Assembly: GCA_002691145.1 (NCBI GenBank)
Contig: NZHE01000026.1
Location: 114,546 to 178,545, forward strand
Direction: 5' to 3'
From: Rickettsiales bacterium
Lineage (GTDB): Bacteria; Pseudomonadota; Alphaproteobacteria; Methylaequorales; Methylaequoraceae
Length of the DNA stretch: 64,000 nt
Part shown: positions 13,912 through 59,004 of the stretch, piece by piece
How positions within the stretch are numbered: the stretch's first letter is position 1
How the letters are laid out: every line of letters begins with the position of its first letter
Notes under the pieces: generated by a model
The model's database searches: none
Seen by the model: the letters and a program-made list of their open reading frames with translations, nothing else
What the model was told of the DNA's origin: nothing
Program-made: the position numbers and the translations under genes

Positions 13912-15162
13912 ATGAATAAGTCCTTTCTAGAATATCTTAATCAAAGAGGTTTTTACAATCAATGTACAAATTATGAAAATTTTGATTTGTCACTAAAAAA
14001 ACCTTTAGTCGGATATGCAGGTTTTGATTGCACAGCCGATAGTTTGCATGTTGGCTCATTAGTTCAAATTATGTTATTAAGGGCTTTTCAAAAATTTGGA
14101 CATAAACCCATAATTCTTTTAGGCGGAGGAACTTCATTAATTGGAGACCCTTCTGGGAAAGATGAGACAAGAAATATTTTAAATATAAAAACTGTAAACT
14201 ATAATAAAAATAAATTATTGTATCTCTTTAAAAAGTTTATCAATTTCGATAAATCAAGAACTGGTGCAATTCTTGTAGATAATTTTGATTGGATAAAAAA
14301 GATTAATTATTTAGATTTTATAAGAGATATTGGTAGTCAATTTTCTGTTAATAGGATGTTATCATTTGATTCCGTGAAGCTTAGACTTCAAAGAGAACAA
14401 AATTTAAGTTTCTTAGAGTTTAATTACGTTTTAATTCAATCTTATGATTTTCTAGAACTATATAAAAGAATGGAGTGTACTGTTCAATTTGGAGGTTCTG
14501 ATCAATGGGGAAATATAGTATCTGGTATTGAATTGATAAAAAAAAAAAAAAATCAAGAAGTTTTTGGCTTAACCTCACCTCTAATAACAACATCGAATGG
14601 GGGAAAGATGGGAAAAACAAATCAGGGGGCGGTATGGTTGACCTCAGAAAAATTAAGTCCATACGAATATTGGCAATTTTGGAGAAATACTTCAGATTCG
14701 GATGTAATTAGGTTTCTTAAATTATTTACTGAGTTACCAATAGAACAAATAAATAAATTTCAGGAGTTGAAAGGTAAAGATTTGAACGAGGCAAAGATTT
14801 TACTTGCAAATGAGGCTACCAAAATTTGCCATGGAGAAAATAACTCAACAAAAGCATATAATTCTTCGATTAAAATTTTTAATAACAACCAAATTGATGA
14901 ATCAATTCCAGAAAAAAATATTTTTAAAGTTGACTCGAATTATTTAAAAGATGGTTTTATTTTAAAAGAAGCACTTATAAAAATTAATTTTTCAAATTCT
15001 AATGGAGAATCAAAAAGACTGATAATAAATGGTGGAGTAAGGATAAATAACATTAAAATTTCAGATAAGGATTATAAGATAACTGAGTCTGATTTTGGAG
15101 AAGAAAAGAAGATAAAAATTAGTGTTGGTAAAAAAAAATACGGTCTGATAACAATTAATTAG
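13912..15162 (+). CDS. tyrS: Tyrosine--tRNA ligase
   Basis: 'HVGS' (HIGH) and 'KMGKT' (KMSKS) motifs, C-terminal S4-like domain. Confidence 0.9.
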   Translation: MNKSFLEYLNQRGFYNQCTNYENFDLSLKKPLVGYAGFDCTADSLHVGSLVQIMLLRAFQKFGHKPIILLGGGTSLIGDPSGKDETRNILNIKTVNYNKNKLLYLFKKFINFDKSRTGAILVDNFDWIKKINYLDFIRDIGSQFSVNRMLSFDSVKLRLQREQNLSFLEFNYVLIQSYDFLELYKRMECTVQFGGSDQWGNIVSGIELIKKKKNQEVFGLTSPLITTSNGGKMGKTNQGAVWLTSEKLSPYEYWQFWRNTSDSDVIRFLKLFTELPIEQINKFQELKGKDLNEAKILLANEATKICHGENNSTKAYNSSIKIFNNNQIDESIPEKNIFKVDSNYLKDGFILKEALIKINFSNSNGESKRLIINGGVRINNIKISDKDYKITESDFGEEKKIKISVGKKKYGLITIN

Positions 15163-22069: not shown

Positions 22070-22888
22070 CTACTTATCCATTTTCCATTTAAAATAATTA
22101 TCAATTCCATTGTTTATACTATCAATTATTTTTTCATGGTAATTATTTTTAACTAAAAGTTCTGCATCTTTTTTATTTGAAAGGTATCCCATTTCAATCA
22201 AAACTGAGGGAATATCAGGAGCCTTCAAAACTGCAAAACCTGCGAATCTATGTGTCCTTTGTAACAGTTTTGTTCTAATTCTAAATTCTTTGATAAGGAA
22301 ATCAACAAAATAACTCGATTGATTCATTGTTTCTCTTTGAGTTAAGTCAATTAAGATATTTGCAACCTCTTTTGATTCTAAACTTAAATCTAATCCTTCA
22401 ATTAAATCTGACTTATTTTCTCTCTTTGCAAGAGCTTCTGCTTCTTTATCAGATGCTCTTTCAGATAAAGTATAAATTGAAACTCCACTTACATTTTTGT
22501 TTCTATGAAAATCAGCATGAAGTGAAATAAATAAATCAGCTTTATTCTTTCTTGCAATTTTTACTCTATCCCTTAGTCTTAAATATCTATCCCCCTGCCT
22601 AGTTAAGATAACTCTATAATTTTTATTCTTCTGCAATCTTTTTTTAAGTTTTTTTGCAACCACTAAGGTGACATCTTTTTCCAATATTTTTCTAACACCA
22701 ATGGCACCAGAATCTTTTCCACCATGACCAGCATCAATGATAATTATCTTTTCTCTAACATTCTTTTCATTGTTTATAGATTTTTCTTTAAGAGAAAAAT
22801 CTATTACGATTCTAAAATCTTTAATACTATTTTTTTTTATCGAATAAAGATTCTTGATTTGAATCTCTTTTTTAAAGATAATGGTCAC
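22070..22888 (-). CDS. N-acetylmuramoyl-L-alanine amidase (Amidase_3 catalytic domain); N-terminal part lies out of frame upstream
   Basis: 'IIIDAGHGGKDSGAIG', 'SLHAD', 'VLIEMGYLSN' Amidase_3 signature. ORF in the track starts with GTG. Confidence 0.85.
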   Translation of the reverse strand: MTIIFKKEIQIKNLYSIKKNSIKDFRIVIDFSLKEKSINNEKNVREKIIIIDAGHGGKDSGAIGVRKILEKDVTLVVAKKLKKRLQKNKNYRVILTRQGDRYLRLRDRVKIARKNKADLFISLHADFHRNKNVSGVSIYTLSERASDKEAEALAKRENKSDLIEGLDLSLESKEVANILIDLTQRETMNQSSYFVDFLIKEFRIRTKLLQRTHRFAGFAVLKAPDIPSVLIEMGYLSNKKDAELLVKNNYHEKIIDSINNGIDNYFKWKMDK

Positions 22889-22983
22889 TTTTTTTTCGTT
22901 AGAAAAAAAATCAATTTTTTCTACATACTCTGTATTGTACTTTTTTTTTGAAATATTTTTGAGATCTTTAAAAAAAATTAATT

Positions 22984-23244
22984 CTAATTTTTTTTATAAA
23001 TAAGAGATTTAAATTTTACATCATTTGATATATCTAAAACAATTCTGTTAACCTCATTTTTTTGACCAAACCTAATGTCTTTTATTTCAAACGCTGATAA
23101 ATTATTAAAGCAATTGAAAAAAAATATTAAAAATATTAATTTAGAAAAAAAATACAAATTACAACAAAATTTTGTTACTATACAACATATAGTAAAATTA
23201 GAATAAAAAAAAACAATATCTTTGATTTTTTTAAATTTTTTCAA
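22984..23244 (-). pseudogene. Signal-peptide + AMIN-domain N-terminal fragment of the amidase, separated from the catalytic ORF by a frame change in an A/T homopolymer region
   Basis: 'FSKLIFLIFFFNCFNNLSA' signal-like h-region, then 'IKDIRFGQKNEVNRIVLDISNDVKFKSLIYKKN*' (AMIN beta-strand pattern). The downstream frame opens 6 nt after this stop and contains the second AMIN-like segment '...KDFRIVIDFS'. Confidence 0.5.
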
Positions 23245-23314
23245 TTTTATAGTATATTTAACAAATATTGATAAAAAACAATTATAAAAAATAAGGATTA
23301 TTTAGGAAAAAATA

Positions 23315-34040: not shown

Positions 34041-35186
34041 ATGCAACAAAGAAAAAATCTAGAAATTTCATGTGTTAAGAGTGTAACTGAAATTCCAAAA
34101 AGTACTTGGAATATGCTCTCAAAGAATAATATTTTAACTGATTATGACTTTTTTCATGCGCTCGAAATAAGTCAGTGTACCTCTGATAAAACAGGTTGGA
34201 TTCCAAATCATATCGTTTTTAAACTTGATAAAATAGTTGTAGCTATAATTCCTACATTTAAAAAATTAAATTCATTTGGAGAATATGTTTTTGATCATTC
34301 ATGGGCAGATGCTTATCACAGAATGGGAATTAATTATTATCCAAAACTTTTAACTGCAATTCCTTTCACACCTATAAATACGGACAAAATTCTTGTAAAT
34401 AAAATTTATGTTGAAAGATTTGACGAAATTATAACTAAGCTCAGAGAATATTTATTAAGTTATAATCTCTCATCTTACCACATAAACTTTATTAATTTAA
34501 AAGATTCTGATAAATTAAAAAATTTTAATTTTTTTCAAAGAACAGGCATACAATATCATTGGAAAAATAATCATTATTCCAATTTTAATGATTTTTTATC
34601 CGAGTTCAGATCAAAAAAAAAAAAAAATATAGTTAAAGAAAGGAATTATCTTATTAAAAATAAGATCAAGATTTCCCAATTAATCGGTGATGAAATTTCA
34701 AAGGATGATTTAAATTTTTTTTACAAATGCTATTCTAATACCATTGAAAAAAAATGGTCACAAAAATATCTTAATTTGAATTTTTTTGAAAATATACTTA
34801 AATCTAATCTCAAAAAAAAAATACTATTAATCACAGCTAAAGATAATGATGAAAATTATTTAGCCTGTTCACTAAACTTTATAGATAAGGACAAATTAAT
34901 TGGAAGATATTGGGGTTGTCAGAATGAGATTCCTTTCCTTCATTTTGAACTTTGTTATTATCAAACTATTGATTTCTGCATTAAAAATAATATCAACCTT
35001 ATAGAAGCAGGAGCGCAAGGTGAACATAAGATTGCCCGAGGTTATAGACCAACACTCACATTTTCAAATCATTGGGTAAATAACAAAGTAATGGAGGAAC
35101 CTATTGCAAATTTTTTGAGTCATGAGAACAAAGTAATAAAAAGAAATTTATCTTTTTTGAATAATTACCTTCCTTTTAAAAAATAA
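34041..35186 (+). CDS. FemAB-like/BioF2-like GNAT-fold N-acyltransferase family protein (DUF482-type)
   Basis: 'HFELCYYQTIDFCIKNNINLIEAGAQGEHKIARGYRPTLTFSNHW' matches the conserved C-terminal block of this family; 381 aa. Confidence 0.5.
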   Translation: MQQRKNLEISCVKSVTEIPKSTWNMLSKNNILTDYDFFHALEISQCTSDKTGWIPNHIVFKLDKIVVAIIPTFKKLNSFGEYVFDHSWADAYHRMGINYYPKLLTAIPFTPINTDKILVNKIYVERFDEIITKLREYLLSYNLSSYHINFINLKDSDKLKNFNFFQRTGIQYHWKNNHYSNFNDFLSEFRSKKKKNIVKERNYLIKNKIKISQLIGDEISKDDLNFFYKCYSNTIEKKWSQKYLNLNFFENILKSNLKKKILLITAKDNDENYLACSLNFIDKDKLIGRYWGCQNEIPFLHFELCYYQTIDFCIKNNINLIEAGAQGEHKIARGYRPTLTFSNHWVNNKVMEEPIANFLSHENKVIKRNLSFLNNYLPFKK

Positions 35187-39212: not shown

Positions 39213-40540
39213 TTAAAAATCTTATTTGGTCTTCCTAAAGAATAATATTTGAAACCCATTTCAATCATTTCTTTAGGATTGTATATGTTCCTAAAGTCAA
39301 TCAATACTGGTTCTTTTAATAAATTCTTTATTTTTTCTAGATTCAATGCTCTAAATTGATTCCATTCTGTTAATATAATAAGTGCATCTGAATTCTCTAC
39401 TGCTTCATATGTCTCATTGAACCATTGAATTTCTGTAAAATATTTTTTGAATTTTTTTTTTGCTTCTCTCATTCCCTCAGGATCATACAAATTAATTTTC
39501 ACACCCTCTTTAATAAGTGCTGGAACTAGATCCAAACTAGGACTATCTCTCATGTCGTCTGTGTTTGGTTTAAAAGTTAATCCTAAAATTGTTAATGTTT
39601 TATTTTTTAAATTGTAGCCACATACCTCCATAACTTTTTTATAGAGATTTTGTTTTCTTTGATTATTACTTTTAACTACATGTTCAATTAATCCTAAATT
39701 AAAATTGTGTTCTTGTGCTGTTTTAACCAGTGCTAGAGTATCTTTAGGAAAACAAGAGCCTCCATAACCTGGTCCTGGATGAAGAAATTTTTTACCAATT
39801 CTTCCATCTAAACCAATCCCAGTTGATACGTCTCCAATATTGGCACCAACTTTTTCACAAAGTTCTGACATCTCATTTATAAAAGTAATTTTTGTTGCCA
39901 AGAAAGAATTAGCAGCGTACTTTATTAGTTCTGATGTTTCCCTTTTGGTAAAAATTATAGGTGTTTCCAAAAGATACAAAGGTCTATAAAGTTCACTTAA
40001 TAATTTTTTTGCTTTATCGCTTTCACAACCAATAACAATACGATCAGGTCTCATAAAATCGTCGATAGCTGAGCCTTCTCTTAAAAATTCTGGATTTGAC
40101 GCCACATCGAAGTTAAGTCTGTTATTTTCTTTCTTAATAATCTCAAACACACGTTTGCCAGTTCCTACAGGCACAGTTGATTTGTTAACTACAACAGCAT
40201 AATGATTTAACTTTTTTCCAATTTCTTGTGCAACTTTAAAAACAAAGCTCAGATCAGCATGCCCATTGTCTTTTCTGGGAGGCGTTCCTACTGCAATAAA
40301 TATTACCTGGGAATCCAAAATTGATTTAGAAAGATCTGTTTCAAATTTTAATCTCTTCTGCTCAAGATTCTTTTTTACTAAAGATTCCAAACCAGGTTCA
40401 TATATGGGAATAATACCTTTTTTTAAATTTTTAATTTTTTCTATATTATTATCTACACATGTTACATCTACTCCAAACTCTGCAAAGCAAGTTCCAGAAA
40501 CTAAACCAACATATCCTGTTCCTATAATTGTGATTTTCAT
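39209..40540 (-). CDS. ugd: UDP-glucose 6-dehydrogenase
   Basis: Rossmann 'MKITIIGTGYVGLVSG', catalytic Cys region 'GGSCFPKD'. Confidence 0.85.
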   Translation of the reverse strand: MKITIIGTGYVGLVSGTCFAEFGVDVTCVDNNIEKIKNLKKGIIPIYEPGLESLVKKNLEQKRLKFETDLSKSILDSQVIFIAVGTPPRKDNGHADLSFVFKVAQEIGKKLNHYAVVVNKSTVPVGTGKRVFEIIKKENNRLNFDVASNPEFLREGSAIDDFMRPDRIVIGCESDKAKKLLSELYRPLYLLETPIIFTKRETSELIKYAANSFLATKITFINEMSELCEKVGANIGDVSTGIGLDGRIGKKFLHPGPGYGGSCFPKDTLALVKTAQEHNFNLGLIEHVVKSNNQRKQNLYKKVMEVCGYNLKNKTLTILGLTFKPNTDDMRDSPSLDLVPALIKEGVKINLYDPEGMREAKKKFKKYFTEIQWFNETYEAVENSDALIILTEWNQFRALNLEKIKNLLKEPVLIDFRNIYNPKEMIEMGFKYYSLGRPNKIFK

Positions 40541-41428: not shown

Positions 41429-41875
41429 TCAATTTAAAAGAGTTTCTTTCGCTTTATTTATCCTAGAAGTAACCCAATCAGATCCACCTAAATCGGGATG
41501 ATTTTTTTTAATTTGCTTTCTATAAGCTGCGATGATGTCATCTTTTGTTGCTCCATCATTCAGTCCAAGAATTCTCAGAGCCTCATCTCTACTCATTGAA
41601 CTACTGAAATCTTTGTTTTCTTTTTTTTTAAAAATAAAATTTTTTATAAATAAAATTACAGAGCGCCATCTTATGAAAAACCAAAAAGCAGCAGGGATAA
41701 ATGAAAAAAAAGATGGATAAACTCTGTACAGCAGAAAACAGCTTAAAATTATTAAGAATAAAATTATTATATTAAGAAAAAGTTTAAAATTTTTAAAAGA
41801 TGAATTAGAAATTTTTTTTAAAAAAAAAATAACTAACAAAAGAGAAAATATTCCAACTAATAAAAGAAAAAACAT
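41429..41875 (-). CDS. J-domain inner-membrane protein (DjlA-like)
   Basis: Two N-terminal TM helices, C-terminal J domain 'AYRKQIKKNHPDLGG' (HPD). Confidence 0.6.
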   Translation of the reverse strand: MFFLLLVGIFSLLLVIFFLKKISNSSFKNFKLFLNIIILFLIILSCFLLYRVYPSFFSFIPAAFWFFIRWRSVILFIKNFIFKKKENKDFSSSMSRDEALRILGLNDGATKDDIIAAYRKQIKKNHPDLGGSDWVTSRINKAKETLLN

Positions 41876-41895
41876 GATATGTTTTTAAAAAAATT

Positions 41896-42369
41896 ATGAC
41901 TAAAAGTAAACTTTTATATTTTGTTAGTGAGGATAAATATTTTCTAACTCACAAATTATCGCATGGTTTAGCTGCATTAAAAAATGGATTCGATGTTTTG
42001 GTCATTTGTAATATTTCTGTCTATAAAAAAAAATTAGAGACATATGGCTTTAAAGTATTAAACTTTCCATTTAACAGAAAGAGTATCAATCCTATTAAGG
42101 AAATAATTTATGCTTTTAAATTTTTAAGGATATTAAATAAGGTTAAACCAGATATAGTCCAATGTATTGCTTTAAAACCAATCTTATATTTTATTATTTG
42201 TGAATTTTTTTATAAATTTAGTGTACAAAAAATTTTCGCAATTGTTGGATTAGGATACATCTTCATTAATAAAAATTTCAAAACTAAATTTCTTAAGTTT
42301 GTTTTGCTAAATATGATTGCATTTTCATTGAAAAAAAAAAAACTCTATAGTTGTTTTCCAAAATATTGA
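41896..42369 (+). pseudogene. Glycosyltransferase family 4 (GT1-fold), N-terminal half; interrupted within an A12 homopolymer (42331-42342)
   Basis: GT4 N-domain pattern. The frame terminates 27 nt after the A-run, while the downstream ORF's frame is open back to the A-run ('KKKNSIVVFQNIDDMNYF...'). Confidence 0.6.
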
Positions 42370-42373
42370 TGAC

Positions 42374-43033
42374 ATGAATTATTTTTTACAAAGAAGAATT
42401 GTTGAAAAAGATAAAGTTTTGATAATTCCTGGGTCAGGTGTAAACACTAGCTATTTTAAACCAAGAAATGTAGCAAAAAAATACGACTTAATTTTACATT
42501 CAAGAATGCTAATTGATAAAGGAGTTGTCGATATAATAACAGCTTTACAAATTTTGCAAAAAAAAGAAATATTTTTAAAAACGCTTTTTTTAGGAAACCC
42601 AGATTATAACAATTTAGCCTCGATTAAGACTAATGAATTAAAATTGTGGAATAAGCAAAAACTTATAGTTTGGATTCCAGAAAAAAAAAAAATTTTAAAA
42701 TATATATTACAGTCTAGGATATCGATACTTCCTTCTTTAAGAGAGGGATTTCCAAAGAGCTTACTTGAAGCCGCAAGTTGCGGTCTACCCTTGATTTCTA
42801 CTGACGTTCCTGGTTGTAGAGAAATTTGTATAAATAATTATAACGGATTATTAGTAAAAAAAAATAACCCTCAAGATTTATCTATAGCTATAGAACGTCT
42901 TATAAAAAATAAAAACAAGTTAAAAACTTTTGGATACAACAGCAGAAAACTTGTTGTTGAAAATTTTTCGGATAAAATTATTTCTAAGCAATTTTTAAGT
43001 TTATACAATACAAGAGCTAAAAAAGTCCTTTGA
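42374..43033 (+). pseudogene. Glycosyltransferase family 4, C-terminal half (continues the upstream ORF after the +1 frame change)
   Basis: 'EGFPKSLLEAASCGLPLISTDVPGCREI' GT4 C-domain signature (E-x7-E region). Confidence 0.6.
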
Positions 43034-44699
43034 TCTGGTCTTTTTGATCAACCCCAACTTCGTAAGCCGCTGGTTTTTTCGGAAGTCCAGGCATAGTCAT
43101 TATATCCCCTGCTACTGCAACAATAAATTCGGCGCCTGCCGAAATTCTTATCTCTCTGATTGTTATAGTATGATCTTTTGGTGCACACTTTTTGGAAGGA
43201 TCAGTACTAAAACTATACTGAGTTTTTGCCATGCAAACTGGAAAATGATTAAATCCAAGAGTATCAATTTCCTTTAATTTTTTTATAGCAGCTGGTGAAA
43301 AAGTTACCTCATCTGCTCGGTATATTTCTTTTGAAATTATATTTATTTTTTCTTCAGTAGTATTTTCATTATCATATAAAAACTTAAAATTTGCATTATT
43401 CTCATCAGTCTTTTTAACAACCTCTTTTGCTAAATTTGCTGCACCTTCCCCGCCCTTGGCCCAATGTTCTGCCAGAATTGCATTCACACCATATTGCTTA
43501 CAAACATCTTGAACAGCATCAATTTCTTTATCAGTATCAGTTGGAAATTTATTTATTGCAACAACACTTGATAATCCAAACTTTGATATATTCTCAATAT
43601 GCCTAAGTAAATTTGGTAATCCTAATTTTAACGCGCCAATATCCTCTGTACCTAGACTTTTTGGTTCAGCATTTCCGTGAAGTTTTAGAGCTCTAACTGT
43701 TGCCACAATAACAGCACATGATGGAGCAATTCCTGATTTTCTGCATTTTATATCTAGGAATTTTTCAGCACCTAAATCTGCACCAAAACCAGCTTCGGTA
43801 ACTACATAATCGGATAGCTTCAAGGCTGTTTTAGTTGCAAGAACTGTATTACAACCATGGGCTATATTTGCGAACGGTCCTCCATGAATAAAAGCGGGGT
43901 TATTTTCTAAAGTTTGTACTAAATTAGGTTGTAATGCATCTTTTAACAAAGCTGACATAGCACCATCAGCTTTAATGTCTTTGCAAGTAACTGGATTCAT
44001 GTCGCTATCATATGCAACAATTATTTTACCTAGCCTATTAAATAAATCATCAAAATCATTTGCCAAACACAATATAGCCATAACTTCAGAGGCAACTGTG
44101 ATATCAAATCCATCCTCTCTAGAAAATCCATTAGCTACTCCTCCCAAAGAATTAACTATTGTTCTTAGAGCTCTATCATTCATATCAACCACTCTTCTCC
44201 AGAATACTCTTCTTGAATCAATTCTCGGTTCTAAGCGCCAGTATATGTGATTATCAATCATTGCCGACAAAAGATTATGTGCTGATGTTATGGCGTGAAA
44301 ATCACCAGTAAAATGAAGATTAATATCCTCCATTGGAACAACTTGAGCATAACCTCCGCCTGCTGCTCCTCCTTTCATTCCGAAACAAGGTCCCAAACTT
44401 GGTTCACGAAGAGCTACCATTGCTTTCTTTCCAATATAGTTTAAACCATCAGTAAGACCAACCGAAGTTGTGGTTTTCCCCTCTCCAGCAGTAGTTGGTG
44501 TCATTGCTGTAACTAAAATTAATTTTCCATCTTCTTTATTTTTAAGATTATTTATGACCTTGAATGGTATTTTTGCCTTGTCATGACCATAAGGAATCAA
44601 GTCGTCAGAGTTTAAATTTAATCTCGTTCTTGCAAGTTCAAGTATAGGTGTTTTTTTTGCTAGTCTGGCAATTTCTATATCAGATTTATAATCAGTCAT
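43017..44699 (-). CDS. fhs: Formate--tetrahydrofolate ligase
   Basis: '[15 protein letters not shown]' P-loop and full-length FTHFS similarity. Confidence 0.95.
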
Positions 44700-45165
44700 C
44701 AGATGACTATACTATGAAAATAAAAAATTTTAAATTTTTTTTTTAGATTATTGATCAATTTCTTTTCCTAATCTCGATATTTCTTTATTGATGATATTTT
44801 ATACAAATTTTGTTTTAGGAAAATACTTCATCTAGAAATTTATGGACTAATTTGTTCTAAACTTATTTAAAATTCTTTTTTTTTCATAATCTTTAAAACA
44901 TGATTTTTTTCATAAAGAATATATGAACTCATAAAATAGTTTTATTAAAATCAATTTTTTTATTACAAACCCTATTACTTTTTTTCATAAAAAGCCATGA
45001 TTGGATATTTTCTATCATAAACTCTTTCTCGAATTTCTAAACTTGAACAATATTAACTTTAAAATCATGATTTTTATCTTTATAGTCAATATTTAAACTA
45101 ACCAAGTTACTAAAAATAATAATTAAATATTCTTACAACATAAATTGAATTGCATATACTTGTAA

Positions 45166-45825
45166 ATGAAATCATTAATTAAAAATACAAACGATATTAT
45201 ATCAAAAAAAACCGCTAAAATATTAATTAATATTGGTTCAATAAATTTTAGTCCTAATAAACCGTTTAAATTAACATCTGGAAAATTTAGTCCTGTATAT
45301 TGTGACTGTAGAAGGATAATTTCATTTCCAAAAGAAAGAGCAAAACTAATTAATTTTGCTACGAAAAAAATTAAAAATGAGTCTTTTTTTAATAAAATAA
45401 CAAATATTTCAGGCGGAGAAACCGCTGGAATACCTTTTTCAGCATTAATCGCTTCAAAACTAAATTTACCAATGACATACATTAGAAAAGAAAAAAAAAA
45501 ATTCGGAAAAAAAGAACAAATTGAGGGAATTTTAAATGAATCTGAAAACGTGATACTAGTCGAAGATTTGATAACTGATGGGGGTAGTAAACTAAGTTTT
45601 ATAAATGCGTTAGAAGAAAAAAAAGTAAAATTAAGAGCAATATTTGTTATTTTCAATTATGGTATTTTTTTCAATAAGTTCCAACACAAAAACAAATCAA
45701 TTAAATTAATACACCTAACAACATGGAAAGACGTAGTTCAGATGGCATTTTCGATGAATAAAATAACTTTAAAGGAAAAGAAAATTATTAACGATTTTCT
45801 AAAAGAAATAGGAGTTAAAAATTAG
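45166..45825 (+). CDS. pyrE: Orotate phosphoribosyltransferase (long-form)
   Basis: PRPP-binding motif 'VILVEDLITDGGS', 'FKLTSGKFSPVY' OPRTase N-terminal region. Confidence 0.7.
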   Translation: MKSLIKNTNDIISKKTAKILINIGSINFSPNKPFKLTSGKFSPVYCDCRRIISFPKERAKLINFATKKIKNESFFNKITNISGGETAGIPFSALIASKLNLPMTYIRKEKKKFGKKEQIEGILNESENVILVEDLITDGGSKLSFINALEEKKVKLRAIFVIFNYGIFFNKFQHKNKSIKLIHLTTWKDVVQMAFSMNKITLKEKKIINDFLKEIGVKN

Positions 45826-46624: not shown

Positions 46625-46817
46625 TTATATCATTCGATTTCAGTGTATATATAGCCCAATCTTTCTTTTTAATTAAATTTTTATTAACAGCAACAGCAAT
46701 ATTTTTTTTGTTGAAGTTAGGAATTTTTGTTTTCAATAGAAGACCTAAATTCGGAATGTCCGTATAAAAAAAACTAATTTTTTCTTCGTTAACAGTTAAT
46801 TCTATTTTTTCTTTCAT
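46593..46817 (-). CDS. thiS: Sulfur-carrier protein ThiS
   Basis: Small ubiquitin-like ORF ending in Gly-Gly ('...VTPFPGG'), between thiO and thiG. Confidence 0.8.
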   Translation of the reverse strand: MKEKIELTVNEEKISFFYTDIPNLGLLLKTKIPNFNKKNIAVAVNKNLIKKKDWAIYTLKSNDIIEIVTPFPGG

Positions 46818-47098
46818 AATTTTTTTTTTAAAAACCTTGTTGGCGACAAACTTTGATTAATTTTTTTGCCCATGATTACATCATATACTAATTCAGCTGT
46901 TATTGGTGATAAAAGTACTCCATGTCTATAATGACCAAAGGCACAAATAATGCTTTTTGATATTTCATCTATTGTGCCGATAATTGGAAGCCCGTCGTAA
47001 CTTGCAGGTCTCAAACCAGAATTTAAACTTTTAATTTCAAGTTCTTCTGTAAAAGGTAGCGATTCTTTTAAATTTTTCACCAAAAAAAAAAATTTCAT
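46814..47098 (-). pseudogene. thiO: Glycine oxidase ThiO, C-terminal segment (separated from the N-terminal part by a frame change in a T11/A11 homopolymer at 47082-47092)
   Basis: 'GLRPASYDGLPIIG...AFGHYRHGVLLSPITAELV' = ThiO/DAO C-terminal signature. Removing one T from the run joins it in-frame to the upstream ORF. Confidence 0.65.
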
Positions 47099-47918
47099 CT
47101 ATATTAATCCCTGATTTAAACCCTCTATCATCCTCAGTAGCTCCAACCATAATCTCATTGTCATCTCTTGGTGCTATATAAATATTTCTAAACCACAAGT
47201 TATGAGTAATTTTTTGATTATTGTTACAACTTAAATTTAATGAAACCCCTTTTAGAGGTTTCGATGAAATATTTATTGAGAATGAACGTTTTAAAACTTT
47301 TTGACTCCAAGCTCCCGCAGCTAAAATAATTTTATCGGAATAAAATTTTTCACCATCATAACTCACACCAACTTTTTTATTTTCAAAAATTATTTTTTCA
47401 ATATTTTTATTAATAATTTTTCCTCCATTTTTTAAAAAACAATCTTTCAAACACATTTTCAAGTTTATTGGATTAACCTGATCTTGTGATTTACAATATA
47501 GTGAACCTTGAACATTATCATTTAAATTAGGTTCAAATTTTAAAGTCTCTTCTCTATCTAAAAAGTCAATATTTTTACCGAGTTTCAAGAAAAATTTTTG
47601 TTTAAACTTTAATCTCTGTAAATCATCAAAATTATTTGCAACCATTAAGGCAGACGTCTTTTTAAAATTAATTTCAAGACTTGAATGTTCACTTATTTTT
47701 TTAGCATATTCTTCCCACTTTTTTTTTGAGAGTTCTAATAAATTGAATAAATCTTCCTCTGAGGGTTTAGCTTCTATTATTGGTGCTAACATTCCTACAG
47801 ACGCTAGACTAGATTCTCTTGAATCATCATAATTAAATATTGTTACTTCAAAACCATTCGTTATAAGTTTAAATCCAATTGATAAACCTATCAAACCTGA
47901 GCCAATTATAAAAATCAT
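47037..47918 (-). pseudogene. thiO: Glycine oxidase ThiO, N-terminal FAD-binding segment
   Basis: 'MIFIIGSGLIGLSIGFKL' dinucleotide-binding motif, '...YIAPRDDNEIMVGATEDDRGF'. Confidence 0.65.
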
Positions 47919-52901: not shown

Positions 52902-53792
52902 TTAATAATTTCTCTCAATTATTAGTTTCGTAATTTTCGTTAAGTTGTTTGATTTAGAACCAAAGCTAGATATTAGATCAATTGACTCGTCGATTAAATC
53001 TTTTGCCATCTGTTTTGCTTTTTTTACTCCTAAGAATGAAATGAAAGTTTTTTTTCCTTGTAATTTATCTTTATTTATTTTCTTTCCAACTTTACTCTCT
53101 TCTCCCTCAAAATCGAGCAGATCATCTTTTATTTGAAAAGCAATTCCGAGATTAAATGAATATTTCTCAAATAATTCATAAAATTCTTTTTCTTTTTTTG
53201 CTAATATTGGAGCAGAAATGCAAGAAAATCTAAATAATTCCCCAGTTTTAAGTCTCTGAAGTTTCTTTATATCTCCAAAATTTAGATCCTTACTTGAGGC
53301 TTCTAAGTCTAACATTTGCCCCTCAACCATACCTGTAACACCTGCAGATTTACAGAGCTCATTTATTAAATTACACCTAACAGCAGAACATGGATGTGTC
53401 TCTTTTTCTGATAAGATTTGAAATGACAAACATTGCAGAGCATCACCAACTAATATAGCCGTAGCAACATCAAATTTTTTATGACAAGTCAGACTTCCTC
53501 TTCTCATGTCATCGTTATCCATTGCTGGCAAATCGTCATGAACTAAAGAGTAACAATGCATTAATTCAATACTTATTGCAACATTCACTGCTTGCTTTAT
53601 ATCTACATCTAAAATTTTGGCAATTTCCAAAACAAAAATAGGTCTTAATCTTTTTCCACCAACATTTAAAACATATTTTATTGCCTCCAATATAGAAGCA
53701 TCTGAAAATTTTGCTCTACTTACAAACTTTAAAATCTTGTCCGTAACATATTTAGAATAATTTTCTAAATAAGCTTTGAATTCACTATTCAT
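52902..53792 (-). CDS. ispA: (2E,6E)-farnesyl diphosphate synthase / geranyltranstransferase
   Basis: 'LVHDDLPAMDNDDMRRG' (first DDxxD) and 'GIAFQIKDDLLD' (second DDxxD). Confidence 0.9.
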   Translation of the reverse strand: MNSEFKAYLENYSKYVTDKILKFVSRAKFSDASILEAIKYVLNVGGKRLRPIFVLEIAKILDVDIKQAVNVAISIELMHCYSLVHDDLPAMDNDDMRRGSLTCHKKFDVATAILVGDALQCLSFQILSEKETHPCSAVRCNLINELCKSAGVTGMVEGQMLDLEASSKDLNFGDIKKLQRLKTGELFRFSCISAPILAKKEKEFYELFEKYSFNLGIAFQIKDDLLDFEGEESKVGKKINKDKLQGKKTFISFLGVKKAKQMAKDLIDESIDLISSFGSKSNNLTKITKLIIERNY

Positions 53793-54062
53793 TTATTCAT
53801 CAAAGTTTTCTAACTTATTTTTATCAATGACTTTTTTTATTTTCATTTCTGCATTTTTTAATTTGAAATCACAGTGATTTTTCAATTTTATCCCTAATTC
53901 ATATAACTTTATCGATTCATCTAAGTCAGATTCTTCACTTTCAAGTTTACTAATTATATTTTCAAGCATCTTAAACGATTCTTCAAAACTCAATTTTTCA
54001 ATTTCATCTTCCCTAATAGTATCTTGCATATTAAAAACTAACTTTTTTTTATTGTAAAACAA
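53793..54062 (-). CDS. xseB: Exodeoxyribonuclease VII small subunit
   Basis: 'FEESFKMLENIISKLESEE..LDESIKLYELGIKL' coiled-coil signature; classical xseB-ispA linkage. Confidence 0.75.
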   Translation of the reverse strand: MFYNKKKLVFNMQDTIREDEIEKLSFEESFKMLENIISKLESEESDLDESIKLYELGIKLKNHCDFKLKNAEMKIKKVIDKNKLENFDE

Positions 54063-54268
54063 ACAACTTTATTAATATTTTCTTGATTAAGAATTTTTAT
54101 ATTCAAATTTTTTGATAACTCTAATAAATCTTGCTTAAAATTTGGATCATCAGCTTGAATTTCAATAATTGAATCTTTTTCAACTTCTTTGATTTTTTTT
54201 GCAACTTTTAATACTGGGATTGGACACTTAAAACCAACCAAGTTCAATTTAGTAATTTTTTGTTTCAT
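54038..54268 (-). CDS. TusA-family sulfurtransferase
   Basis: 'LNLVGFKCPIPVLKVAKKI' – CPxP active-site motif of TusA/SirA. Confidence 0.75.
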   Translation of the reverse strand: MKQKITKLNLVGFKCPIPVLKVAKKIKEVEKDSIIEIQADDPNFKQDLLELSKNLNIKILNQENINKVVCFTIKKS

Positions 54269-54338
54269 AAAATAATAAATTTAATATTTAAATTGAGAAC
54301 TATATTATATATATTAATATGAATTCTATTATATTATT

Positions 54339-55301
54339 ATGAAATATTTTAAATATATATTAACTTTAGTAGTCTTTTTTTCTTTTGATCTAAGCTTTGC
54401 ACAGAACAAAATTAAAATTGGTACCCTTCAATATGGGAGTGTCAATTGGGAGCTTGAACTCATTAAACAATTATCACTAGACAAAAAAAATAACATTAAT
54501 GTAGAAATTGTTCAGCTTGCAAGTAAGAATGCGGCAGCTGTAGCACTTCAAGGTAATGCTGTTGATTTGATTGTTACTGATTGGTTTTGGGTCTCAAGAC
54601 AAAGAGCTTTAAACAGAATGTTTTCCTTTGTACCTCATTCTATGGCCGCGGGTGGGCTTATCGTAGATGAGAACTCAGGTATTCAGAGTATTGACGATCT
54701 TAAAGGAAAAAAAATTGGCATTGCTGGCGGCCAAGTAGATAAAAGCTGGTTGATATTTAGAGCTTTCTATCAACAAAAATTTGGTAATGATCTAATAAAT
54801 GAAACAAAACAAATTTTTGGAGCTCCACCATTGCTTAACAGAAAGATAGAGCAAGGTAGTTTTGACGCCATTTTAACATATTGGCCTTATCAGGCTAGAT
54901 TACTCTCAAAAGGATTTGTAAAAGTGATAAATGTTAATGATATTATCAAAAATTTGGGAATAAACAGTAATATGCCAATAATCGGATGGGTATTTAGGGA
55001 TGAATGGGCGCAGGAAAATCCAAATTTATTAGAAAACTTTATAAATACATCAAATGAAGCCAAAGAGTTGATGTTGAAAAAAGATGAAGTTTGGGAAAAT
55101 ATCAAGCCCATTATGAAATCAGAAAATGATAAAGTTTTCAATAATCTTCGTGATATTTATCGCGAAGGCATACCAAGAAATTTTGGTTCATCCAATGTAG
55201 ACGGCGCATCAATTCTTTATAGTACTCTTTCTGAAATTGGTGGCAAAGCTCTTGTTGGAAACTCAAAGGAAATTGCCCCAGGAACATTCTGGTTAGAATA
55301 A
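54339..55301 (+). CDS. ABC transporter periplasmic substrate-binding protein, NMT1/SsuA/TauA family (sulfonate/nitrate/taurine or pyrimidine-precursor type)
   Basis: Signal peptide, type-2 PBP fold with 'GKKIGIAGGQVD' segment characteristic of the family. Confidence 0.7.
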   Translation: MKYFKYILTLVVFFSFDLSFAQNKIKIGTLQYGSVNWELELIKQLSLDKKNNINVEIVQLASKNAAAVALQGNAVDLIVTDWFWVSRQRALNRMFSFVPHSMAAGGLIVDENSGIQSIDDLKGKKIGIAGGQVDKSWLIFRAFYQQKFGNDLINETKQIFGAPPLLNRKIEQGSFDAILTYWPYQARLLSKGFVKVINVNDIIKNLGINSNMPIIGWVFRDEWAQENPNLLENFINTSNEAKELMLKKDEVWENIKPIMKSENDKVFNNLRDIYREGIPRNFGSSNVDGASILYSTLSEIGGKALVGNSKEIAPGTFWLE

Positions 55302-57451: not shown

Positions 57452-57862
57452 ATGTTTTTGGAAGAAAAAGAAGAGAAAAATAGAACTATTAACATAATCC
57501 CACTTATAGATATTATTTTTCTTATGCTAATTTTTTTTATGTTGGCAACAAATTTTTATAAAGACAAGGAGATTGATTTCATAGTTCCAAAAAATAAAGT
57601 TGAATTAACAAATACATCTGAAGAATTTTTGGAGATAAGATTAAATGAAGATAAATATCTTTGCAACAATGAAGAAATGAATTTTGGGGAGTTATCCGAA
57701 AAATTTTTGAAAATTTGGAGAGAAAAAGATTATGAAGGAGTAGTTATATTTAACAATGAAAAATCTGAAGTAAGGAACCTTATTAAGTTACTCGATATTT
57801 TAAACAAAAATAAAGTTTCGAAATTTTTCTTTGGAGAGAAAAATGTTTATAAAAAAAGATAA
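57452..57862 (+). CDS. exbD: ExbD/TolR-family protein (copy 1)
   Basis: 'INIIPLIDIIFLMLIFFM' N-terminal TM typical of ExbD/TolR. Confidence 0.8.
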   Translation: MFLEEKEEKNRTINIIPLIDIIFLMLIFFMLATNFYKDKEIDFIVPKNKVELTNTSEEFLEIRLNEDKYLCNNEEMNFGELSEKFLKIWREKDYEGVVIFNNEKSEVRNLIKLLDILNKNKVSKFFFGEKNVYKKR

Positions 57863-58247
57863 GTTTAAAAAAAAGGAAATTAATCTGATTCCTATGATTA
57901 ATATTATATTTCTCTTACTAATTTTTTTTATGCTAACAGGTACAATAAAATATCAGGAATATCCTCAGATTATGAAGCCATATTCCGAGCAAGCATATAA
58001 AGAATCTAACTATAGTGAAAATAATTTTAATCTCGGAATTTTAGCTAATGGTGAATTACTTTTTAAACAAAAGAAAATAAATTTGAATGACCTAGGCAAA
58101 AAAGTAACAGAATTATCAAAGACCAAAAAAATTTTATTAAGCGTTCATAAAAATACAAAAATCGAAAAATTCAAAGAAGTATTAGGAGTTTTCAAACAAA
58201 ATAATTTTGAAAAAGTTTATGTTTTAACAACTAATGAAGATATATGA
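57831..58247 (+). CDS. exbD: ExbD/TolR-family protein (copy 2)
   Basis: 'INLIPMINIIFLLLIFFMLTG'; paralog of the preceding gene. Confidence 0.8.
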   Translation: MERKMFIKKDKFKKKEINLIPMINIIFLLLIFFMLTGTIKYQEYPQIMKPYSEQAYKESNYSENNFNLGILANGELLFKQKKINLNDLGKKVTELSKTKKILLSVHKNTKIEKFKEVLGVFKQNNFEKVYVLTTNEDI

Positions 58248-59004
58248 CATGTCGAATTTAAAAATAGCATTTTTGGCATTAAACTTTTCTATTTTATGTC
58301 ACATTTTTTTTATCTTATTACTTCTTGAAAAAAAAAGTAGTGAAAAAAAGTACGCTGTAGTTGATCTTTCAAATTTCAGTAAATTTCAAACAATCAATAT
58401 CAAGAAAAAAGAAAAAATTGATAATACGAAAAGCTCAGAAAAAAAAAAAAATAGTGATAACAAAAAAACATTACAAAAAAATTTAGAAACCTCAAAGCAA
58501 GAACCAAAAAAAGTAATAAAAAAAAATGATTTAACTTATCCAAAAGTTGAAGTTTTAAAAAAGCCTGAAAAAAAAAATCCATTTTTTGAAAAGGAAAAAG
58601 ATGTAGAAGAAAATGAAAAAAAAAAAAAAGAGAAGACTTTTGATAGTAGCGATGAATATCAGAAACAAAGTTCAGCTGCCAAAGAATTATTAATTATTAA
58701 AGATAAAGCCCTTTATAACTATTTAAAACAAATATCTACTGAAATTAATATTTTAGCAAATAAGGCATATCCAAAGCGTTCAATTTTAAGAAGAGAACAA
58801 GGAAAAATTTTGACGAGAATTACCATTGGTTATTCAGGAGAGGTAATAAATATACAAATTTTAACAAAAAGACCGAAAAACTTAGCAAAAAGTGCTGAAA
58901 AGATATTAAAACAAAGAAATAAACTTCCAGCGCCACCTGAAATTTTAATCAAAAATTCTAAAAGTATAGTTGTTGAGATACCTATAAATTATATTCTCAA
59001 GTAA
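58234..59004 (+). CDS. tonB: TonB-family energy transducer
   Basis: N-terminal TM anchor, Lys/Glu/Pro-rich spacer, C-terminal TonB_C-like 'YPKRSILRREQGKILTRITIGYSGEVINIQILTKRP...LPAPP'. Confidence 0.7.
   Translation: MKIYDMSNLKIAFLALNFSILCHIFFILLLLEKKSSEKKYAVVDLSNFSKFQTINIKKKEKIDNTKSSEKKKNSDNKKTLQKNLETSKQEPKKVIKKNDLTYPKVEVLKKPEKKNPFFEKEKDVEENEKKKKEKTFDSSDEYQKQSSAAKELLIIKDKALYNYLKQISTEINILANKAYPKRSILRREQGKILTRITIGYSGEVINIQILTKRPKNLAKSAEKILKQRNKLPAPPEILIKNSKSIVVEIPINYILK

What the first reader, a model, noticed from the sequence alone, without database searches (positions are those of the whole stretch)
41896..43033. GT4 glycosyltransferase in a surface-sugar cluster split within an A12 tract – candidate phase-variable gene
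The N-terminal (41896..42369) and C-terminal (42374..43033, 'EGFPKSLLEAASCGLPLISTDVPG') halves of one GT4 enzyme are in different frames. The only place where both frames are open is the 12-A homopolymer at 42331-42342. Homopolymer slippage is a classic ON/OFF switch for LPS/capsule glycosyltransferases in other bacteria, and this gene sits right after manB-ugd-galU. It may equally be a sequencing artefact (see the thiO finding).
Basis: partly seen in the sequence, partly recalled or inferred. Interest (0 to 1): 0.5.

Follow-up and report, generated by a model that had tools for sequence, protein, structure and literature searches.

The report
Glycosyltransferase split by homopolymer miscount
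A sugar-transferase gene looks broken at a run of twelve A's in this metagenome-assembled genome, but nearly all other assemblies of the same wild population carry eleven A's and an intact gene, so the break is most likely an assembly or sequencing miscount, not an on/off switch.

Summary
ORFs 41896..42369 and 42374..43033 are the two halves of one PglA-like GT4 glycosyltransferase, out of frame across an A12 run (42331-42342). Deleting one A gives a 378-aa protein identical to P0122, which is recorded on at least 24 contigs.

The window is an Illumina metagenome-assembled genome ("Rickettsiales bacterium", CMM91_10695/10700). I compared it over about 43 kb with up to 15 contigs that are 99.65-99.94% identical. 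Every indel falls in an A/T run of 8 or more bases.

The window carries three such deviations, and each breaks a gene:
- the amidase gene (T8 against T9 in 10 of 10 other contigs)
- this GT (A12 against A11)
- thiO (T11 against T10 in 12 of 12)

Other assemblies show the same problem. Essential tyrS is broken at an A15 run in two of them, and three contigs end at another A15 run.

The tract is absent from syntenic orthologues. Long coding A/T runs are exactly as common as codon usage predicts. A12 does recur in two other assemblies, and the gene's second A12 run reads A13 in two more, so a real minority slippage allele cannot be excluded without reads. A dedicated phase-variation switch is not supported. 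Low interest.

The parts
41896..42369 (+). N-terminal ORF (157 aa) of the GT4 gene. It matches the intact protein up to K148, then reads out of frame (KLYSCFPKY*).
   Evidence: Pfam Glyco_trans_4_2 E 1.2e-10. Deposited as MAI85377.1 / OUV52934.1.
42331..42342 (+). A12 homopolymer, the site of the +1 frameshift. A11 in 13 of 15 near-identical contigs; A12 also in L013 and L014.
42374..43033 (+). C-terminal ORF (219 aa, starts at M160 of the intact protein). It holds the Glycos_transf_1 domain with the E283-x7-E291 motif.
   Evidence: Both glutamates are invariant in 36 homologues. Deposited as MAI85378.1 / OUV52935.1.
42681..42692 (+). Second A12 run in the same gene, in frame here (E-K-K-K-I). 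It reads A13 in L016 and L017, which truncates the protein to 273 aa (P0123).
42856..42864 (+). A9 run in the same gene. It reads A8 in L014, which truncates the C-terminal ORF to 170 aa (P0126).
46814..47918 (-). thiO (DAO family), split into 293 + 94 aa by T11 on the coding strand (+ strand A11, 47082-47092). It reads T10 in 12 of 12 other contigs. The repaired protein equals P0130 (367 aa).
22070..23300 (-). Amidase_3 (AmiC-like) gene, frameshifted in the window by a run of 8 (22988-22995). The run is 9 in 10 of 10 other contigs, where the gene is 391 aa.
14538..14552 (+). A15 run inside tyrS (13912..15162), intact in the window. It serves as a control: it reads A14, with tyrS split into 184 + 219 aa, in L105 and L109.
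34613..34627 (+). A15 run inside the FemAB_like ORF (34041..35186). It serves as a control: its length is invariant where covered, but three contigs end at or within 16 nt of it.

Best explanation
The organism's gene is an intact 378-aa PglA-like GT4 glycosyltransferase with an A11 run. The A12 in this window is a one-base over-count of a long homopolymer, introduced when Illumina metagenome reads were assembled into this unpolished MAG contig.

Shown:
- The window equals the intact allele apart from one extra A.
- The intact allele dominates the public assemblies of this population.
- The same contig carries two further gene-breaking homopolymer deviations that no other assembly shares.
- Other assemblies of the population make the same kind of error in an essential gene and break at long A runs.

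Inferred:
- The extra A arose technically, from polymerase stutter or loss of base quality in long A/T runs, followed by bubble resolution or consensus calling during assembly. Cross-sample Minimus2 merging of Megahit contigs may have contributed, if the window belongs to the Tully data sets (PMC5507172). That attribution rests on my recollection of the accession series.
- The extra A did not arise in the cells.
For: 1. Repairing A12 to A11 gives exactly P0122. P0122 is carried by at least 24 contigs, in 39 index blocks, from Tara, JGI, Logan and NCBI records.
2. Eleven contigs retrieved through the intact protein are 99.65-99.94% identical to the window, and the only indels are in homopolymers.
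3. Over about 43 kb compared, the window has three deviations from the consensus of the other assemblies, and each breaks an ORF: amidase T8 against T9 in 10 of 10, the GT, and thiO T11 against T10 in 12 of 12. One cell line carrying all three lesions at 99.9% identity to intact relatives is implausible.
4. Essential tyrS is split by A14 against A15 in 2 of 9 sequences covering that tract (window included). ugd is split in L006.
5. Three contigs physically end at the A15 run at 34613-34627.
6. A12 carriers hold 3 of the 5 non-GT homopolymer deviations although they are 3 of 16 assemblies (binomial P 0.049).
7. The window's proteins are deposited as 'MAG... Rickettsiales bacterium', locus tag CMM91. 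The pipeline I believe produced it pools per-sample Megahit contigs and merges them with Minimus2 at 95% identity, and no read-level polishing step is mentioned in the methods passages read (PMC5507172).
8. L005 and L007 (GCA_902525415.1, GCA_902615335.1) are probably single-cell assemblies, judged from the accession series only. Both have A11 and intact thiO. The same two contigs, fetched as L106 and L112, have an intact amidase gene.
Against: A12 at this tract is not private to the window. It also occurs in L013 (ENA ERZ17173334, contig label cov 21) and L014 (GCA_001757005.1), on at least two SNP backgrounds. The gene's second tract reads A13 in two further assemblies.

At the level of the whole collection, the two GT tracts deviate in 5 of 60 to 5 of 90 tract observations. 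Other tracts of 10 or more bases deviate in 5 of 196. The rate is higher for the GT, but not significantly (Fisher P 0.057 to 0.30).

Majority-rule assemblers should normally report the dominant length, so A12 may truly dominate in some samples. No reads were available to check.
Confidence: 0.6

Rival explanations
1. There is a real but non-adaptive slippage polymorphism. Replication slippage at A11/A12 runs keeps producing +/-1 loss-of-function alleles of this GT. These alleles sit at low to moderate frequency in some water samples, and the assembler sometimes picks them up. Such alleles might be leaky, because RNA polymerase and ribosomes slip on runs of this length.
For: Deviating lengths recur at both long tracts of the gene in five assemblies, on more than one SNP background. 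One carrier contig is labelled cov 21. [quoted passage not shown] Transcription insertions rise exponentially with A/T run length (PMC5574713).
Against: The same kind of deviation occurs in tyrS, thiO, ugd and the amidase gene, where real alleles should be strongly selected against. The GT rate is not significantly above that of other tracts. The carrier assemblies are error-prone at other tracts too. The two probable single-cell records have the intact allele.
Confidence: 0.25
2. It is an evolved contingency locus. The A run acts as an ON/OFF switch for a surface glycosyltransferase, maintained because switching helps the population, for example by escape from phage that bind the glycan.
For: Two of the longest coding runs in this stretch sit in one monocistronic surface-sugar gene. 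Frame-toggling lengths occur at both, on different backgrounds. Homopolymer switching of glycosyltransferases is well established in Campylobacter, Neisseria and Helicobacter (for example PMC3025981, listed).
Against: The tract is not conserved. Syntenic orthologues read AAG AAG AAT AAT, or A8 or shorter, at tract 1, and GAA AAG AAG AAC at tract 2. Coding runs of 11 or more and 12 or more bases are exactly as frequent as synonymous-codon shuffles predict (8 observed against 8.3 expected; 5 against 4.7). Runs of A13 to A15 sit in tyrS, FemAB_like and TonB-like genes. The gene is positionally conserved across relatives with only 46-52% GT identity, so it is not an accessory island gene. The ON state dominates heavily. 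Searches for SAR11 with 'homopolymer' and Pelagibacter with 'phase variation' turned up no report of SSR phase variation in these bacteria among the titles and abstracts listed and the two papers opened.
Confidence: 0.1
3. The split gene works as it stands, either as two polypeptides (a split GT-B enzyme) or through programmed frameshifting on the A run.
For: The break lies near the boundary between the two Rossmann-like domains, and each ORF keeps a recognisable domain. A-rich runs are slippery for ribosomes and for RNA polymerase (PMC5009743, listed; PMC5574713).
Against: Residues 149-159 (NSIVVFQNIDD) are encoded by neither ORF. This stretch includes F154, Q155, N156 and D159, which are invariant in 36 homologues. 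No canonical start codon precedes M160 in the second frame. The shifted arrangement is rare, and it is absent from every orthologue examined.
Confidence: 0.03

Closest known systems
Assembly-induced homopolymer frameshifts in AT-rich marine bacterial assemblies (for example split genes in Pelagibacter assemblies, bioRxiv 10.64898/2026.04.03.716430)
   Same: One gene is called as two adjacent ORFs. The lesion is a single-base indel in an A/T run. Housekeeping and essential genes are hit as well. The lesion is recognised by comparison with intact near-identical sequences (here).
   Different: That report concerns Oxford Nanopore basecalling. Here the evidence points to short-read assemblies: the MAG is attributed, from memory of the accession series, to an Illumina Tara data set, and the comparison contigs carry Megahit/SPAdes-style names. 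In such data homopolymer errors are less expected and appear only at runs of about 8 or more bases.
Homopolymer-driven phase variation of glycosyltransferase genes (contingency loci of Campylobacter jejuni, Neisseria, Helicobacter pylori; PMC3025981, PMC6232127, PMC5381349)
   Same: A mononucleotide run lies inside the ORF of a surface-glycan GT, and its length decides the reading frame. Different lengths are seen among closely related sequences.
   Different: Several things known for those systems are missing here: enrichment or conservation of the tract, variation specific to the locus, evidence from a clonal lineage, and an accessory or variable genomic context. From general knowledge, the classical tracts in Campylobacter and Neisseria are poly-G/C in host-adapted pathogens.
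Poly(A)-tract frameshifts rescued by transcriptional slippage in Buchnera and Blochmannia (Tamas et al. 2008, cited in PMC5574713; PMC3017870)
   Same: An AT-rich small genome, a single indel in a run of 10-12 A's in an otherwise intact gene, and long runs tolerated in essential genes.
   Different: In the endosymbionts the frameshifted state is fixed, and in some genes it is conserved between populations or species. Here the intact allele is the norm and the shifted one is rare. No RNA data are available.
PglA, the Campylobacter GT4 that adds GalNAc to Und-PP-diNAcBac (PDB 8DQD)
   Same: It is the best solved-structure match (E 2.6e-34 over residues 31-371). The two-domain GT4 layout is the same, and the E-x7-E motif is present.
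   Different: No NCBIfam equivalog model reaches its cut-off. No pgl-type neighbours are present; the neighbours are galU, ugd, manB, a DnaJ-domain gene and FTHFS. Donor and acceptor are unknown.

Membership tests
GT4 / GT-B retaining glycosyltransferase (PglA-like) | An N-terminal Glyco_trans_4-type domain together with a C-terminal Glycos_transf_1 domain | tested here: met
   On the repaired protein, Pfam gives PF13477 at E 1.8e-10 and PF00534 at E 8.1e-32.
GT4 / GT-B retaining glycosyltransferase (PglA-like) | The E-x7-E motif in the C-terminal domain | tested here: met
   E283 and E291 (REGFPKSLLEAASCG) are both invariant in 36 homologues.
GT4 / GT-B retaining glycosyltransferase (PglA-like) | Same specificity as PglA (Und-PP-diNAcBac acceptor, UDP-GalNAc donor) | not testable with these tools
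   There is only sequence similarity to 8DQD. No equivalog model passes its cut-off.
SSR-mediated phase-variable (contingency) gene | A slippage-prone simple repeat inside the ORF whose length sets the frame | tested here: met
   A12 at 42331-42342. A11 or A14 would be in frame.
SSR-mediated phase-variable (contingency) gene | Tract length differs among closely related cells or strains and toggles the gene | tested here: inconclusive
   A11 in 13 contigs and A12 in the window and 2 contigs. Tract 2 reads A13 in 2 contigs. These are assemblies, not cells, and the same noise is seen in essential genes.
SSR-mediated phase-variable (contingency) gene | The tract is longer or more frequent than composition predicts, or is conserved in orthologues | tested here: not met
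   Synonymous shuffles give 8.3 expected against 8 observed for runs of 11 or more, and 4.7 against 5 for runs of 12 or more. Orthologues have interrupted or short runs.
SSR-mediated phase-variable (contingency) gene | Instability is specific to the locus and not shared by all runs of similar length | tested here: not met
   5 of 60 to 5 of 90 for the GT tracts against 5 of 196 for other tracts (Fisher P 0.057-0.30). tyrS A15 deviates in 2 of 9.
SSR-mediated phase-variable (contingency) gene | Reversible high-frequency switching within a clonal lineage | not testable with these tools
   This needs a culture or read-level data.
Transcriptional-slippage-rescued frameshifted gene (endosymbiont type) | A single indel in a poly(A/T) run of an otherwise intact gene | tested here: met
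Transcriptional-slippage-rescued frameshifted gene (endosymbiont type) | The frameshifted state is fixed or conserved across populations | tested here: not met
   The intact allele is on at least 24 contigs; the shifted allele is on about 3.
Transcriptional-slippage-rescued frameshifted gene (endosymbiont type) | A mixed mRNA pool with corrected transcripts | not testable with these tools
   No transcriptome data were available.
Assembly/sequencing homopolymer artefact | Differences from near-identical sequences are confined to homopolymer length | tested here: met
   All indels over about 43 kb against up to 15 contigs lie in A/T runs of 8 or more bases.
Assembly/sequencing homopolymer artefact | The same assembly carries several such lesions in unrelated, including housekeeping, genes | tested here: met
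   The window has lesions in the amidase gene, the GT and thiO.
Assembly/sequencing homopolymer artefact | The lesion is private to the assembly | tested here: inconclusive
   The thiO and amidase lesions are private. The GT A12 is shared with L013 and L014.
Assembly/sequencing homopolymer artefact | Reads do not support the assembled length | not testable with these tools
   No reads were accessible.

The most novel reading that the evidence does not exclude
The +/-1 length differences among assemblies could be real. In that case this very AT-rich, nearly clonal marine alphaproteobacterium would carry a standing pool of frameshift alleles at many unconstrained A11-A15 coding runs. Its conserved PglA-like surface glycosyltransferase has two such runs and would be the locus where OFF alleles reach visible frequency. 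That would amount to an unplanned contingency switch, possibly buffered by transcriptional slippage and possibly relevant to phage escape.
Probability: 0.1. Interest if true: 0.55.

Novelty: not a real feature. Interest (0 to 1): 0.12.

Why it matters
The main value is as a caution. Illumina-based MAG and metagenome contigs of very AT-rich bacteria can carry one-base errors at A/T runs of about 8 or more bases. These errors split genes, and the deposited annotation here lists the halves as separate 'hypothetical proteins' (MAI85377.1 and MAI85378.1; also the thiO halves). Such splits can be misread as pseudogenes, auxotrophies (thiO) or phase variation.

The intact gene is a positionally conserved PglA-like GT4 next to galU/ugd/manB, and it should be annotated as one gene. 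If the minority lengths turned out to be real, this would be a first hint of homopolymer switching of a surface glycan gene in an abundant free-living marine bacterium, and read data would test it directly.

Tried and rejected
- **Metagenome scans.** Two scans of the JGI metagenome-contig collection found nothing: a variable-gap pattern around tract 1 and a plain 29-mer next to it. The pattern works on the loci already held. An unbiased tract-length census from that collection was therefore not possible.
- **Genome scan.** It returned only distant relatives (52% identity or less) and neither the source species nor named isolates.
- **Taxonomy.** The FTHFS search returned only 'Rickettsiales', 'Alphaproteobacteria' or 'Pseudomonadota bacterium' labels, and no record named Pelagibacter. 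I therefore did not use the argument that SAR11 lacks mismatch repair. Rfam and ARAGORN found only one tRNA-Met in the window.
- **Clonal A12 lineage.** Rejected. No SNP is shared exclusively by the three A12 carriers.
- **Working two-piece enzyme.** Rejected because invariant residues 154-159 are lost.
- **Other candidate frameshift sites.** One search flagged 27945, 27968, 30170, 34022, 43019 and 57851; one search flagged 46597, 46820, 49778 and 54043. I judge these to be ordinary gene junctions or short chance ORFs. 57851 is the junction of two complete ExbD genes, and 54043 showed no convincing split on translation. The others were judged from the ORF map only.
- **Literature.** Searches for SAR11 with 'homopolymer' and Pelagibacter with 'phase variation' gave nothing specific among the listed titles and abstracts and the two papers opened.

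Full report
**1. The observation**

The window is 29.2% G+C. ATG 41896 opens a frame that runs to TGA 42367-42369, giving 157 aa. The +1 frame is closed by TGA 42329-42331 and is then open to 43033. Its first canonical start is ATG 42374, giving 219 aa. The two frames are therefore both open only across 42332-42369, and the A12 run at 42331-42342 lies in that stretch.

Pfam puts Glyco_trans_4_2 on the first ORF and Glycos_transf_1 on the second. A sequence with one A removed gives a single 378-aa protein with both domains.

There is a second, in-frame A12 run in the same gene (42681-42692). The window also contains 23 A/T runs of 10 or more bases.

**2. What the gene is**

The repaired protein is a GT4 (GT-B) enzyme.
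- Its best solved relative is Campylobacter PglA (8DQD, E 2.6e-34, residues 31-371).
- No NCBIfam equivalog reaches its cut-off.
- The E283-x7-E291 motif and the FQN..D motif (154-159) are invariant in 36 homologues.

The gene stands alone on the + strand. Its start is 20 bp from the divergent start of a DnaJ-domain gene, which is followed on the - strand by galU, ugd and manB/pgm. Its 3' end overlaps the convergent FTHFS gene by 17 bp.

The order manB-ugd-galU-DnaJ | GT | FTHFS is kept in L002 (GT 72% identical). It is also kept in L018, L019 and L024, where the GT is only 46-52% identical. The gene is therefore a positionally conserved member of a housekeeping neighbourhood (clpA/S, thiamine genes, FTHFS). 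It is not part of a variable O-antigen or capsule island.

**3. Where the window comes from**

Exact look-up shows the two half-ORFs are deposited as MAI85377.1/OUV52934.1 and MAI85378.1/OUV52935.1. They are labelled 'MAG: hypothetical protein CMM91_10695/10700 [Rickettsiales bacterium]' and sit on a 215,087-bp contig.

From my own knowledge of these accession series, these are the Tara Oceans MAGs of Tully and colleagues; I did not verify this. That pipeline pools per-sample Megahit contigs, collapses them at 99%, and cross-assembles them with Minimus2 at 95% identity. No read-level polishing step is mentioned in the methods passages I read (PMC5507172).

**4. The intact allele is the norm**

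The A11-repaired protein is identical to P0122. P0122 is carried by at least 24 contigs (39 index blocks) from Tara/ENA, JGI, Logan and NCBI records.

Eleven such contigs were compared with the window. They are 99.65-99.94% identical over up to 21 kb. Each differs from the window by one fewer A at 42331-42342.

A look-up anchored on the neighbouring FTHFS protein does not depend on the GT state. It found 21 contigs, and all six displayed have a 378-aa GT. Similar places are collapsed in that output, so carriers of the split allele can be hidden.

**5. The window carries three homopolymer lesions, two of them private**

Over 31.9-53 kb (15 contigs) and 9.7-32 kb (10 contigs), every indel between the window and the other assemblies lies in an A/T run of 8 or more bases. 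The window deviates from the consensus at three places, and each deviation breaks a gene:

| Gene | Window | Other assemblies | Effect |
|---|---|---|---|
| Amidase_3 (22988-22995) | run of 8 | run of 9 in 10 of 10 | 391-aa gene elsewhere |
| GT (42331-42342) | A12 | A11 in 13 of 15 | split 157 + 219 aa |
| thiO (47082-47092) | T11 | T10 in 12 of 12 | repaired = P0130 |

A single lineage that had lost a cell-wall amidase, the thiazole-pathway oxidase and this GT, while staying 99.9% identical to intact relatives, is implausible. A contig with a few homopolymer miscounts is not.

**6. Controls from the other assemblies**

- The essential tyrS gene carries an A15 run (14538-14552). It reads A14, and tyrS is split into 184 + 219 aa, in L105 and L109. 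That is 2 of the 9 sequences covering the tract, window included.
- ugd is frameshifted (T11) in L006 only.
- Three contigs (L008, L009, L017) physically end at or within 16 nt of the A15 run at 34613-34627. Assembly graphs therefore break at long A runs in these data.
- The three A12 carriers hold 3 of the 5 non-GT homopolymer deviations seen in the 31.9-53 kb region, although they are 3 of 16 assemblies (binomial P 0.049). This points to assembly quality and not to locus biology.

**7. What argues for something real**

A12 at tract 1 is also present in L013 (ENA ERZ17173334, contig labelled cov 21) and L014 (GCA_001757005.1). The three carriers do not share a private SNP and sit on at least two backgrounds. 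Tract 2 reads A13 in L016 and L017, and the A9 run at 42856 reads A8 in L014.

Counted over the whole collection, the two long GT tracts deviate in about 5 of 60 to 5 of 90 observations. Other tracts of 10 or more bases deviate in 5 of 196. The GT rate is higher, but not significantly (Fisher P 0.057-0.30). The GT tracts are also longer than most comparators.

Without reads I cannot separate recurrent miscalling at the two longest runs of the gene from a genuine minority allele.

**8. Is the tract built for switching?**

No sign of that was found.
- In the syntenic orthologue L002 the codons at tract 1 are AAG AAG AAT AAT, and at tract 2 GAA AAG AAG AAC.
- In L018 and L019 the run at tract 1 is A8 or shorter, while long runs occur at other, non-homologous positions (A14 in L019).
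- AAA makes up 82% of lysine codons, and lysine is 10.7% of residues.
- Synonymous-codon shuffles predict 17.4, 8.3 and 4.7 coding runs of at least 10, 11 and 12 bases. The observed counts are 21, 8 and 5.
- Runs of A13 to A15 sit in tyrS, FemAB_like and a TonB-like gene.

The tract is what AT bias and a K-K-K-N loop produce.

**9. Mechanism and ranking**

Most likely (0.6): a technical one-base over-count in an unpolished metagenome contig. The organism makes an intact enzyme from an A11 allele.

Second (0.25): a real, non-adaptive slippage allele present in some samples. On general grounds it would be leaky, because RNA polymerase inserts bases in A/T runs at rates that rise exponentially with run length (PMC5574713). 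Frameshifted poly(A) genes of endosymbionts also yield some full-length product (PMC3017870).

Third (0.1): an evolved phase-variable switch of the Campylobacter/Neisseria type. The tests for locus specificity, tract enrichment and tract conservation were not met.

A working two-piece enzyme is unlikely (0.03). Residues 149-159, including invariant F154, Q155, N156 and D159, are encoded by neither ORF.

**10. Novelty and value**

The finding is ordinary, and the split gene should be read as one gene. The useful by-product is a documented case in which Illumina-derived metagenome contigs of a very AT-rich, nearly clonal marine population carry gene-splitting errors at A/T runs of about 8 or more bases, including in essential genes.

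A comparable problem is described for Nanopore assemblies of Pelagibacter (bioRxiv 10.64898/2026.04.03.716430). Long homopolymers at this density are rare among bacteria (PMC9262707).

**11. Dead ends**

- The JGI metagenome scans found nothing.
- Taxonomy could not be refined beyond 'Rickettsiales/Alphaproteobacteria bacterium'.
- Rfam found only a tRNA.
- The literature searches, as far as the listed titles and abstracts and the two papers opened show, gave no report of homopolymer phase variation in SAR11-like bacteria.

Noticed in passing
window 22988-22995 (gene about 22070-23300, - strand): The Amidase_3 (AmiC-like) gene is frameshifted in the window by a run of 8. The run is 9 in all 10 other assemblies, where the gene is 391 aa. 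This is a third homopolymer lesion in this contig.
   Followed up: yes
window 46814-47918 (- strand), tract 47082-47092: thiO (DAO family) is split into 293 + 94 aa by T11. It reads T10 in 12 of 12 other assemblies, and the repaired protein equals P0130 (367 aa). The apparent thiO pseudogene is not a real auxotrophy signal.
   Followed up: yes
window 14538-14552 (tyrS, 13912..15162); L105 and L109: An A15 run lies inside the essential tyrosyl-tRNA synthetase gene. Two other assemblies read A14 and so call tyrS as two ORFs.
   Followed up: yes
window 34613-34627 (FemAB_like ORF 34041..35186); L008, L009, L017: Another in-frame A15 run. Three independent contigs end at or within 16 nt of it, so assemblies break at this run.
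   Followed up: partly
window 57452-59004: Two tandem ExbD genes are followed by a TonB-like gene. The TonB-like gene carries A13, A10 and A14 runs in frame, so it is another gene that would be easy to mis-assemble.
   Followed up: no
whole window (coding regions): Coding A/T runs are not depleted relative to synonymous-codon shuffles. Runs of 8 or more bases are even enriched (107 observed against 89 expected). This differs from the purging of long runs reported for most bacteria.
   Followed up: partly
window 9700-53034 against L001, L003-L017 and L104-L113: The population is unusually clonal for an AT-rich marine bacterium. More than 25 contigs from Tara, JGI, Logan and NCBI records are 99.65-99.94% identical, and contigs reach 250 kb. 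The SNP patterns are mosaic.
   Followed up: partly
window 41875-41896: Only 20 bp separate the divergent start codons of the DnaJ-domain gene and the GT, so both promoters must lie inside coding sequence.
   Followed up: no
L006 (window 39452-39461 equivalent): ugd is truncated to 375 aa in this Tara scaffold by T11 in place of T10. This is another single-assembly homopolymer lesion.
   Followed up: partly
window 53792-54339 and 44699-45166: These intergenic gaps (about 550 and 470 bp) are unusually long for this compact genome. Six-frame translation of the first showed no convincing gene.
   Followed up: partly
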